Shown here piece after piece: positions 63,696 to 64,000 of a DNA stretch of 64,000 nt. The stretch lies in NCBI RefSeq assembly GCF_048403405.1, contig NZ_CP183129.1. One strand, 5' to 3'. The DNA is from Escherichia coli. Lineage in GTDB: Bacteria; Pseudomonadota; Gammaproteobacteria; Enterobacterales; Enterobacteriaceae. Below the pieces are notes generated by a model that was given only the letters and a program-made list of their open reading frames with translations, ran no database searches and had not been told where the DNA came from. The stretch's first letter is position 1. Each line of letters opens with the position of its first letter. Position numbers and translations under genes: made by a program.

Positions 63696-64000
63696 TCGTG
63701 TTTCCGCTTCGCCGGAGCGCCTTTTCGCGCCATGTGATGAGTTCGGTCAGGCTCATGGGATACAGTTCTGATGGCGGCCAGTGAAATATCACTGCCACAT
63801 CCGCCATCAGGTCATCGACCGAGAGATTTTTCGGAAACGTCACTGCACCGAGTTCGGTGACAAAAAACCGACCACCTTACCGGCCAGCGCCACAAGGTCA
63901 GGCAGTTCCAGTGCGGCGACTTCCTGCTCGGTCAGCATCGGTGCCGTCATGCGCGGCAACACCTTAATCAGTGCATCGACTTCGGAGTTTGCGACCGCTG
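63688..64000 (-). CDS. E: P2 gpE / gpE' tail assembly chaperone pair made by a programmed -1 frameshift (5' end outside window)
   Basis: The zero frame reads ...LIKVLPRMTAPMLTEQEVAALELPDLVALAGKVVGFLSPNSVQ* and stops at 63840-63842. After a -1 slip the frame continues ...FFVTELGAVTFPKNLSVDDLMADVAVIFHWPPSELYPMSLTELITWREKALRRSGNTNE* to the stop at 63688-63690. Confidence 0.75.
63861..63867 (-). promoter_or_regulatory. Slippery heptamer TTTTTTG for the E/E' -1 ribosomal frameshift
   Basis: Minus strand GGT TTT TTG, 18 nt upstream of the zero-frame stop; the conserved position of the frameshift between the two tail chaperone frames upstream of the tape measure gene. Confidence 0.7.

What the first reader, a model, noticed from the sequence alone, without database searches (positions are those of the whole stretch)
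63840..63870. Programmed -1 frameshift site in the tail chaperone gene pair upstream of the tape measure gene
A T6G slippery heptamer (minus strand, 63861-63867) sits just before the zero-frame stop (63840-63842), and the -1 frame stays open for about 57 further codons, ending in a stop that overlaps the T start codon. This is the geometry expected for the conserved E/E' frameshift of P2-like and many other tailed phages.
Basis: partly seen in the sequence, partly recalled or inferred. Interest (0 to 1): 0.35.

Follow-up and report, generated by a model that had tools for sequence, protein, structure and literature searches.

The report
Phage P2 E/E' tail-gene frameshift site
This is the well-known programmed -1 ribosomal frameshift site of bacteriophage P2 (tail assembly genes E and E+E'), in a P2 prophage of E. 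coli; the call is correct but ordinary.

Summary
On the minus strand, TTTTTTG lies at 63867..63861 in X_XXY_YYZ phase (GGT TTT TTG). The zero-frame TGA is six codons later (63842..63840). The -1 frame stays open for exactly 57 codons, to TAA at 63690..63688. One detail is slightly off: that stop lies 3 nt after the tape-measure ATG (63695..63693), so the two ORFs overlap by 8 nt (ATGAGTAA).

The region is 97.7% identical to phage P2, whose GenBank record marks this heptamer as the "site of -1 translational frameshift". An identical E. coli chromosome supplies the 5' part of E that the window lacks. The completed gpE is 100% identical to P2 gpE, and the 142-aa fusion differs from P2 gpE+E' by one residue (A87T).

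The in-phase heptamer, the -1 extension and its abutment on T recur in 17 diverse Peduoviridae loci and 80 viral contigs. They persist despite rare codons, and often with no possible E' start codon.

The motif and geometry alone are not beyond chance; homology and conservation carry the case. This is already known (Christie 2002; Xu 2004), so interest is low. RefSeq annotates E' as a separate 51-aa GTG-start gene, which is probably wrong.

The parts
63840..64000 (-). 3' part (53 codons plus the TGA stop) of tail assembly chaperone gene E. The gene start lies about 115 nt beyond the window end.
   Evidence: Translation. The full 91-aa gpE was reconstructed from the identical chromosome L002 5886..6161 and is 100% identical to P2 gpE. 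Pfam PF10109, 47.8 bits.
63861..63867 (-). Slippery heptamer T_TTT_TTG (X_XXY_YYZ phase), the site of the -1 ribosomal frameshift.
   Evidence: Sequence. It aligns to the annotated P2 frameshift site. TTTTTTG is in phase in 14 of 17 diverse Peduoviridae loci (including the window and P2) and 78 of 80 viral contigs.
63840..63842 (-). Zero-frame TGA stop of E.
   Evidence: Relatives have TGA, TAA or TAG here.
63688..63861 (-). E' : the -1 frame extension, 57 sense codons plus TAA (63690..63688). It is translated only as the C-terminus of the 142-aa gpE+E'.
   Evidence: Pfam PF06528, 78.8 bits. The conserved core is DDLMADxAxIFHWPPSE...W[RH]xxA. Substitutions against Kp4886-2 and PSP3 are most often synonymous in this frame.
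61248..63695 (-). Tape measure gene T (815 aa). Its ATG at 63695..63693 lies 3 nt upstream of the E' stop, giving an 8-nt ORF overlap (ATGAGTAA).
   Evidence: The same overlap (ATGAGTRR) is present in 80 of 80 viral contigs.

Best explanation
This is the programmed -1 ribosomal frameshift site of a bacteriophage P2 prophage. The prophage's tail genes (FI, FII, E/E', T, U, D) lie next to ogr. Most ribosomes translating gene E read GGU UUU UUG, continue for six codons and stop at UGA, giving the 91-aa gpE. A minority slip back one nucleotide on U_UUU_UUG, when tRNA-Phe is in the P site and tRNA-Leu is in the A site. In P2 this minority is reported as 2-3 times lambda's 1 in 30. These ribosomes then read GUC ACC GAA... 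for 57 codons in the -1 frame and stop 3 nt after the start codon of the tape measure gene T. The product is the 142-aa gpE+E' (...VVGFL|VTELGAVTFPK...). The two proteins share their N-terminus and are made at a fixed ratio. By analogy with lambda gpG/gpGT, they act as tail assembly chaperones: the common E part binds the tape measure protein, and the E' domain recruits the tail tube subunit. Neither is thought to end up in the virion. Shown here: the sequence anatomy, near-identity to P2, family membership of both parts, and nucleotide-level conservation of the slip site. Taken from the literature: that the shift occurs, and its efficiency. Inferred by analogy: the chaperone mechanism.
For: Anatomy read from the sequence. 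Identity to P2 is 97.7%, and the P2 record annotates E, the joined E+E' and the frameshift site at the aligned heptamer. gpE is identical to P2 gpE. The fusion I derived for P2 exactly equals the deposited AAD03292.1/O64312 'Tail assembly protein E''. The window's fusion differs from it only by A87T, a change that is silent in the E frame. Pfam gives PF10109 for E and PF06528 for E'; PHROGs places both in 'tail' families. The operon context FI-FII-E-E'-T-U-D-ogr is intact. tblastn of the fusion finds 418 phage records. The match falls in two pieces in 57 of the 60 records listed, as expected for an alignment split across two reading frames. In 17 loci from at least 12 Peduoviridae genera, an in-phase slippery heptamer sits at the aligned F-L position. 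It is TTTTTTG in 14 loci, and GGGAAAG, AAATTTT or TTTTTTC in the other three. In every locus the -1 frame is open from there to about the T start. Encoding x-F-L as NNT-TTT-TTG would be expected in only about 0.1-2.6% of cases from local codon usage, including the 64-67% GC Burkholderia, Ralstonia and Acidovorax phages. Of 80 viral contigs, 78 have TTTTTTG and all 80 share the same geometry. No start codon is available for E' in 10 of 17 diverse loci and 28 of 80 close loci. Literature: PMC3091744 states that P2 frameshifts at TTTTTTG to give 91-aa E and 142-aa E+E'. PMC5009743 describes the lambda G/GT mechanism and says P2 efficiency is 2-3 fold higher, citing Christie et al. 2002.
Against: There are no expression data for this particular prophage, and its activity is unknown. 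The heptamer count and the ORF geometry are not above chance on their own. No conserved stimulatory RNA structure was found: the fold z-score is -1.24, the covariation term is unfavourable, and there is no Rfam hit. This agrees with what is reported for P2. A GTG overlapping the E stop (GTGA) could in principle start E' independently, and RefSeq annotates it that way. I could not read the primary experimental paper (Christie 2002), so efficiency and essentiality rest on secondary citations, the GenBank notes and my memory of the abstract. The junction residue (Leu against Phe) cannot be decided from sequence.
Confidence: 0.95

Rival explanations
1. E' is translated independently as a 51-aa protein from the GTG at 63843..63841, which overlaps the E stop (GTGA). 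Translation would start by termination-reinitiation coupling, with no frameshift. This is how RefSeq/PGAP annotates it.
For: The GTG overlaps the TGA stop. PGAP calls a separate 'GpE family phage tail protein' CDS, and this 51-aa sequence is deposited from about 1000 contigs.
Against: No Shine-Dalgarno-like sequence precedes the GTG. The GTG exists only where the E stop is TGA; in the 43 of 80 viral contigs with TAA or TAG, that codon is not a possible start (for example GTA). Twenty-eight of 80 close loci and 10 of 17 diverse loci have no ATG, GTG or TTG anywhere between the upstream -1 frame stop and the conserved E' core. This model does not explain nucleotide-level conservation of an in-phase slippery heptamer made of rare codons. 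P2 experiments are cited as showing a -1 fusion product.
Confidence: 0.02
2. The fusion arises by transcriptional slippage. RNA polymerase would add one extra U on the T6 run, producing a subset of mRNAs that encode ...GFFVTELG... directly, without ribosomal slippage.
For: The site is a homopolymeric T6 run. Genome assemblies with T7G at this site exist, and they encode exactly the fused 142-aa ORF with an FF junction (STF78072.1, QTN08932.1).
Against: From general knowledge of bacterial transcriptional slippage, efficient slippage needs runs of about 8-9 or more, and T6 is short. Homologous loci have non-homopolymeric tandem-slippage heptamers at the same aligned position (GGGAAAG in the Mannheimia phage, A_AAT_TTT in P88_4B11), which only ribosomal slippage explains. 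The 3' G is conserved in 78 of 80 close loci. The T7 assemblies include a long-read NCTC genome and may be homopolymer sequencing errors.
Confidence: 0.03
3. The heptamer and the open -1 frame are a chance coincidence, and E' is not expressed.
For: The motif frequency and the geometry are within chance expectation for the window.
Against: The locus is nearly identical to an experimentally characterised one. The E' peptide is conserved across 418 phage records and matches its own Pfam family. The substitution pattern favours the -1 frame.
Confidence: 0.005

Closest known systems
Bacteriophage P2 genes E and E+E' (FETUD tail operon; Christie, Temple, Bartlett & Goodwin 2002, J Bacteriol 184:6522; GenBank AF063097, UniProt TAP_BPP2 / TAPFS_BPP2)
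   Same: It is the same locus. Nucleotide identity is 97.7%. The TTTTTTG heptamer, its phase, the 6-codon distance to the stop, the 57-codon extension and the ATGAGTAA overlap with T are all identical. gpE is 100% identical and gpE+E' is 141/142 identical.
   Different: There is one substitution in the dual-coding stretch (TCG to TCA at 63858). It is silent in E and gives A87T in E+E'. The element resides in a prophage inserted between pflB and pflA of an E. coli chromosome and carries different accessory cargo.
Lambda G/GT tail assembly chaperone frameshift and its counterparts in long-tailed dsDNA phages (Levin, Hendrix & Casjens 1993; Xu, Hendrix & Duda 2004, 2013, 2014)
   Same: The position is the same: between the tail tube/major tail gene and the tape measure gene. 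A -1 slip on an X_XXY_YYZ heptamer near the end of the upstream ORF gives two products with a common N-terminus at a fixed ratio. No strong stimulatory structure is needed.
   Different: The heptamer is different (T_TTT_TTG against G_GGA_AAG). Reported efficiency is 2-3 fold higher in P2. The Pfam families are unrelated, and P2 has a contractile tail. The chaperone mechanism for gpE/gpE+E' is inferred from lambda, not shown here.
Other Peduoviridae E/E' pairs (Wphi, PSP3, 186-like, Fels-2-like RE-2010, Burkholderia KS5/KS14/KL3, Ralstonia RSA1, Mannheimia 1127AP1)
   Same: The architecture is the same, and most share the same TTTTTTG.
   Different: Identity is lower (37-78% aa to the fusion), the linker between the slip site and the E' core varies (10-26 codons), and a few use other heptamers.

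Membership tests
P2-type E/E+E' programmed -1 frameshift (Peduoviridae tail assembly chaperones) | The gene pair lies between the tail tube gene FII and the tape measure gene T, in the FI-FII-E-E'-T-U-D operon. | tested here: met
   T, U, D and ogr are in the window. FI and FII lie immediately upstream in the 100%-identical chromosome.
P2-type E/E+E' programmed -1 frameshift (Peduoviridae tail assembly chaperones) | A slippery heptamer TTTTTTG in X_XXY_YYZ phase lies near the 3' end of E. | tested here: met
   The heptamer is at 63867..63861 with codons GGT TTT TTG. It aligns with the annotated P2 site.
P2-type E/E+E' programmed -1 frameshift (Peduoviridae tail assembly chaperones) | The -1 ORF (E') is open from the heptamer and ends at the start of T. 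| tested here: met
   There are 57 codons, and the TAA at 63690..63688 lies 3 nt after the T ATG. The same holds in 80 of 80 viral contigs.
P2-type E/E+E' programmed -1 frameshift (Peduoviridae tail assembly chaperones) | E' lacks its own translation initiation site. | tested here: inconclusive
   In the window a GTG (63843..63841) overlaps the E stop, but it has no SD-like sequence. In 10 of 17 diverse and 28 of 80 close loci no start codon exists at all, so an independent start is not a conserved feature.
P2-type E/E+E' programmed -1 frameshift (Peduoviridae tail assembly chaperones) | E belongs to the gpE tail-assembly-chaperone family and the extension to the GpE' family. | tested here: met
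   PF10109 scores 47.8 bits (cut-off 25) and PF06528 scores 78.8 bits (cut-off 23). gpE is identical to UniProt TAP_BPP2.
P2-type E/E+E' programmed -1 frameshift (Peduoviridae tail assembly chaperones) | A fusion polypeptide is actually produced at roughly 10%, and both products are essential. | not testable with these tools
   This is reported for P2 itself (Christie 2002), as cited in PMC3091744 and PMC5009743, and in the 'essential tail protein' notes of AF063097. The primary paper is not held in the library.
Lambda G/GT-type conserved tail chaperone frameshift (Xu, Hendrix & Duda 2004) | Two overlapping ORFs between the major tail/tube gene and the tape measure gene are joined by a programmed frameshift near the end of the first. 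| tested here: met
Lambda G/GT-type conserved tail chaperone frameshift (Xu, Hendrix & Duda 2004) | The common domain binds the tape measure protein, the extension binds the tail tube subunit, and both are absent from virions. | not testable with these tools
   This is inferred by analogy with lambda (PMC5009743). No solved structure of a gpE relative was found by sequence.
Lambda G/GT-type conserved tail chaperone frameshift (Xu, Hendrix & Duda 2004) | Sequence similarity to lambda gpG/gpGT. | not tested
   No similarity is expected. The Pfam families assigned here are the P2-specific ones.

The most novel reading that the evidence does not exclude
The most novel reading not excluded concerns flanking elements that tune P2's frameshift efficiency, which is higher than lambda's. 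One candidate is the SD-like UAAGGUGGU at 63879..63871, 3 nt 5' of the heptamer. An [AG]AGGT[GT] motif sits in the same register in 10 of the 14 TTTTTTG loci. The other candidate is the small hairpin CACCG-AACU-CGGUG, which starts 1 nt 3' of the heptamer. Either would be an undescribed stimulator or attenuator of the P2 shift. The data do not favour this. The motif coincides with conserved K/E-V codons, and its spacing is shorter than the 10-14 nt known to stimulate -1 shifts. The hairpin shows mismatches (A-C, U-U) in close relatives and is absent in distant ones.
Probability: 0.08. Interest if true: 0.3.

Novelty: already known. Interest (0 to 1): 0.06.

Why it matters
This site has little value as a discovery. 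It is the type example of the conserved tail-chaperone frameshift in contractile-tailed temperate phages, characterised experimentally in 2002 and annotated in the P2 reference genome.

Its practical value lies in annotation. RefSeq/PGAP records for this prophage family match in 1,646 of 5,426 complete E. coli genomes. In the 15 top-scoring records listed, and in the one record inspected in detail, E' is a free-standing 51-aa GTG-start gene and the 142-aa gpE+E' product is omitted. The conservation data here show that the GTG start is an accident of the TGA stop. The case also shows that a reader working from raw sequence can recognise a true recoding site. The motif and geometry alone recur by chance about a dozen times in 64 kb, so homology is what validates the call.

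Tried and rejected
(1) I could not read the primary paper (Christie et al. 2002) by DOI or PMC id, because it is not held. I relied on secondary citations and the GenBank annotation.

(2) I tested whether the motif or the geometry is significant on its own. It is not: 26 copies against 20.9 expected, and 12 sites pass a loose geometric filter.

(3) I looked for a downstream stimulatory RNA structure. The 81-nt fold has a z-score of -1.24. The six-sequence consensus has a 5-bp hairpin but an unfavourable covariation term and broken pairs. Close relatives show A-C, U-U and U-C mismatches at the second pair. I rejected it as a conserved stimulator.

(4) An Rfam scan of 59000..64000 gave no family at gathering threshold.

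(5) A PDB sequence search with the fusion gave no hit at E<=1. I did not run structure prediction because it would not change the verdict.

(6) The search for related loci with the diverse gpE alignment A3 failed, because no stretch was conserved enough. The E' core alignment A4 worked but returned mostly close relatives. It was therefore useful for heptamer and start-codon statistics, but not for testing the upstream SD-like motif across deep lineages.

(7) The independent GTG start, transcriptional slippage and pure chance were each considered and rejected (see the rival explanations).

Full report
**Observation**

I read the last 700 bases of the window on the minus strand and translated both frames.
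- TTTTTTG occupies 63867..63861.
- In the frame of the ORF that enters from the window end, the codons are GGT TTT TTG (G F L), so the heptamer is in the canonical X_XXY_YYZ phase.
- That frame ends at TGA 63842..63840, six codons after the heptamer.
- From G 63861 the -1 frame reads GTC ACC GAA ... GAG for 57 codons and ends at TAA 63690..63688.
- The next gene encodes an 815-aa protein (61248..63695, minus strand) and starts at ATG 63695..63693.

The two ORFs therefore overlap by 8 nt (ATGAGTAA). The -1 stop lies just after the start codon rather than on it. Apart from that detail, every coordinate in the finding is correct.

**Is the pattern more than chance?**

Not by itself. TTTTTTG occurs 26 times in the window against 20.9 +/- 4.0 expected. 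I also treated every XXXYYYZ site as defining its own zero frame. Twelve sites then have an open upstream frame, a nearby zero-frame stop and at least 50 open codons in the -1 frame. The pattern is a lead, not evidence.

**What it is**

A megablast of 63200..64000 against phage genomes gave 74 records, 70 of them at 95-99% identity, all P2-like. Bacteriophage P2 itself (AF063097) is 97.7% identical. The P2 record annotates four features:
- gene E;
- a joined CDS E+E' ([quoted passage not shown]);
- a misc_feature "site of -1 translational frameshift";
- gene T ("putative tail length determinator").

The alignment puts the window heptamer exactly on the P2 heptamer. There are five nucleotide differences in the 321 aligned bases.

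The window cuts off the 5' third of E. However, window 57201..64000 is 100% identical to the chromosome of E. coli GN02461, and this supplies the rest.
- The completed gpE is 91 aa and identical to P2 gpE.
- The -1 fusion is 142 aa and differs from P2 gpE+E' only at residue 87 (Thr for Ala). The cause is TCG to TCA at 63858, which is silent in the E frame.
- An exact-sequence look-up confirmed that the P2 fusion I derived (junction ...GFL|VAELG...) is the deposited AAD03292.1 / NP_046780.1 / UniProt O64312 "Tail assembly protein E'". It also confirmed that this gpE is UniProt TAP_BPP2.
- Pfam assigns E to PF10109 (Phage_TAC_7, tail assembly chaperones) and the extension to PF06528 (Phage_P2_GpE), both far above their gathering scores. 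PHROGs places both in "tail" families.
- The surrounding genes are the P2 tail operon: sheath FI, tube FII, E, E', tape measure T, U and D, followed by ogr.

**Conservation**

tblastn of the fusion against phage genomes found 418 records, and 400 of them cover at least 80% of the query. The match falls in two pieces in 57 of the 60 records listed, as expected when the alignment changes reading frame. The hosts include Escherichia, Salmonella, Klebsiella, Yersinia, Burkholderia, Ralstonia, Pseudomonas, Mannheimia, Vibrio, Shewanella, Aeromonas and Acidovorax.

I fetched 15 further diverse loci and analysed them together with P2 and the window.
- All 17 have an in-phase slippery heptamer at the aligned F-L position. 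It is TTTTTTG in 14, and G_GGA_AAG (Mannheimia, noted by its annotators), A_AAT_TTT (P88_4B11) or T_TTT_TTC (Aeromonas 59.1) in the others.
- All 17 have a -1 frame that is open from the heptamer and ends within about 55 nt of the T start wherever T is annotated.
- The extension has a variable linker of 10-26 codons, followed by a conserved core (DDLMADIAxIFHWPPSE...L.EL..W[RH].KA..RSG).
- From local codon usage, encoding x-Phe-Leu as NNT-TTT-TTG would be expected in only about 0.1-2.6% of cases. It is nevertheless kept in phages of 64-67% GC. This points to selection on the nucleotides rather than on the amino acids.

A scan of viral contigs with the E' core returned 80 loci in 39 distinct sequence contexts. 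Seventy-eight have TTTTTTG, and all 80 have the 6-codon/57-codon/ATGAGTRR geometry. Against Kp4886-2 and PSP3, changed codons are synonymous far more often in the -1 frame (9 of 19 and 8 of 22) than in the other two frames (1-5 of 21-24).

**Mechanism**

Established knowledge comes from Christie et al. 2002 and Xu et al. 2004, as summarised in PMC3091744 and PMC5009743.
- P2 shifts -1 at TTTTTTG to give the 91-aa E and the 142-aa E+E'.
- No downstream structure is present in P2.
- P2 efficiency is 2-3 fold above lambda's G:GT ratio of about 30:1.
- In lambda, the shared domain coats the tape measure protein and the extension recruits the tail tube subunit. Neither product is found in virions.

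I infer the same for this prophage. The slip site and both protein parts are shown here. The occurrence of the shift is taken from work on P2, which is 97.7% identical. The chaperone role is by analogy with lambda.

My own search for stimulators found nothing convincing.
- A 5-bp hairpin starts 1 nt after the heptamer. The fold z-score is only -1.24, there is no supporting covariation, and close relatives carry mismatches.
- An SD-like UAAGGUGGU lies 3 nt upstream. It coincides with conserved K/E-V codons and is closer to the heptamer than the spacing known to stimulate -1 shifts (general knowledge of dnaX-type sites).
- Rfam has no match.

**Rivals**

*Independent translation of E'.* RefSeq annotates E' as a separate 51-aa protein starting at the GTG that overlaps the E stop, and this peptide is deposited from about 1000 contigs. 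Several points count against it.
- The GTG has no SD-like sequence.
- It exists only where the E stop is TGA (37 of 80 loci).
- 28 of 80 close loci and 10 of 17 diverse loci have no possible start codon between the upstream -1 stop and the E' core.

*Transcriptional slippage on the T6 run.* The non-homopolymeric heptamers at the same position in homologues, the conserved 3' G and the shortness of the run all count against it.

*Chance.* This is excluded by the conservation data.

**Verdict**

The feature is already known: it is the P2 E/E+E' frameshift in a P2 prophage. Interest is low. The only useful by-product is the evidence that the RefSeq annotation of a separate GTG-start E', seen in the records inspected, is probably wrong.

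Noticed in passing
window 58973..59290 (junction about 59162..59190); L099 3595..5419: The P2-like prophage is inserted between pflB (56690..58972, +) and pflA. Phage homology on the ogr side ends at about 59162. At 59165 a short ORF, ATGTCAGTTATTGGT..., is left (MSVIGDIF*). From memory it matches the first five codons of pflA. In the identical chromosome, the annotated pflA (798 nt) lies about 36 kb away, directly next to the phage integrase. The att core therefore seems to lie at the 5' end of pflA.
   Followed up: partly
window 63688..63843 (-); L002 6158..6313: RefSeq/PGAP annotates E' as a free-standing 51-aa GTG-start 'GpE family phage tail protein' and does not annotate the 142-aa frameshift product. 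The same 51-aa sequence is deposited from about 1000 contigs. The GTG is present only when the E stop is TGA, so this is probably a systematic misannotation.
   Followed up: yes
L018 1748..1755 (GCA_900448455.1, UGAH01000002.1): An E. coli NCTC assembly has T7G instead of T6G at the slip site. This fuses E and E' into one 142-aa ORF with an FF junction (STF78072.1). A second such protein (QTN08932.1) exists for the P2-type sequence. These could be homopolymer sequencing errors or real mutants that make only the fusion.
   Followed up: partly
window 63846..63859 (-): A 5-bp hairpin, CACCG-AACU-CGGUG, starts 1 nt 3' of the heptamer. The window's only difference from P2 in this stretch (A for G at 63858) turns a G-U pair into A-U. 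The CCG...CGG core is kept in close relatives, but the second pair is often mismatched, and the hairpin is absent in distant relatives.
   Followed up: partly
window 63871..63879 (-): A Shine-Dalgarno-like UAAGGUGGU lies 3 nt 5' of the heptamer. An [AG]AGGT[GT] motif occurs in the same register in 10 of the 14 TTTTTTG loci, at the conserved K/E-V codons. The spacing is shorter than that known to stimulate -1 shifting. Its significance is unknown.
   Followed up: partly
window 58850..59600: A megablast of this stretch against phages matched 633 records; in 554 the best match is 80-90% identical. Many of the 633 are Escherichia or Shigella phages, some of them Tequatrovirus. The likely cause is that the 3' end of pflB (the glycyl-radical segment) resembles the T4 Y06I/GrcA-like gene. 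That explanation is from memory and was not checked.
   Followed up: no
L002 1016..3647 and L099 10478..14001 (same prophage, outside the window): The prophage carries accessory genes at the two classical P2 cargo positions. A Lit-family exclusion protein and a DUF2634 gene lie between the tail-fibre assembly gene and FI (the Z/fun position). A DUF7380 protein and a reverse-transcriptase family protein lie after the replication gene (the tin/old position). These are probably anti-phage defence cargo.
   Followed up: no
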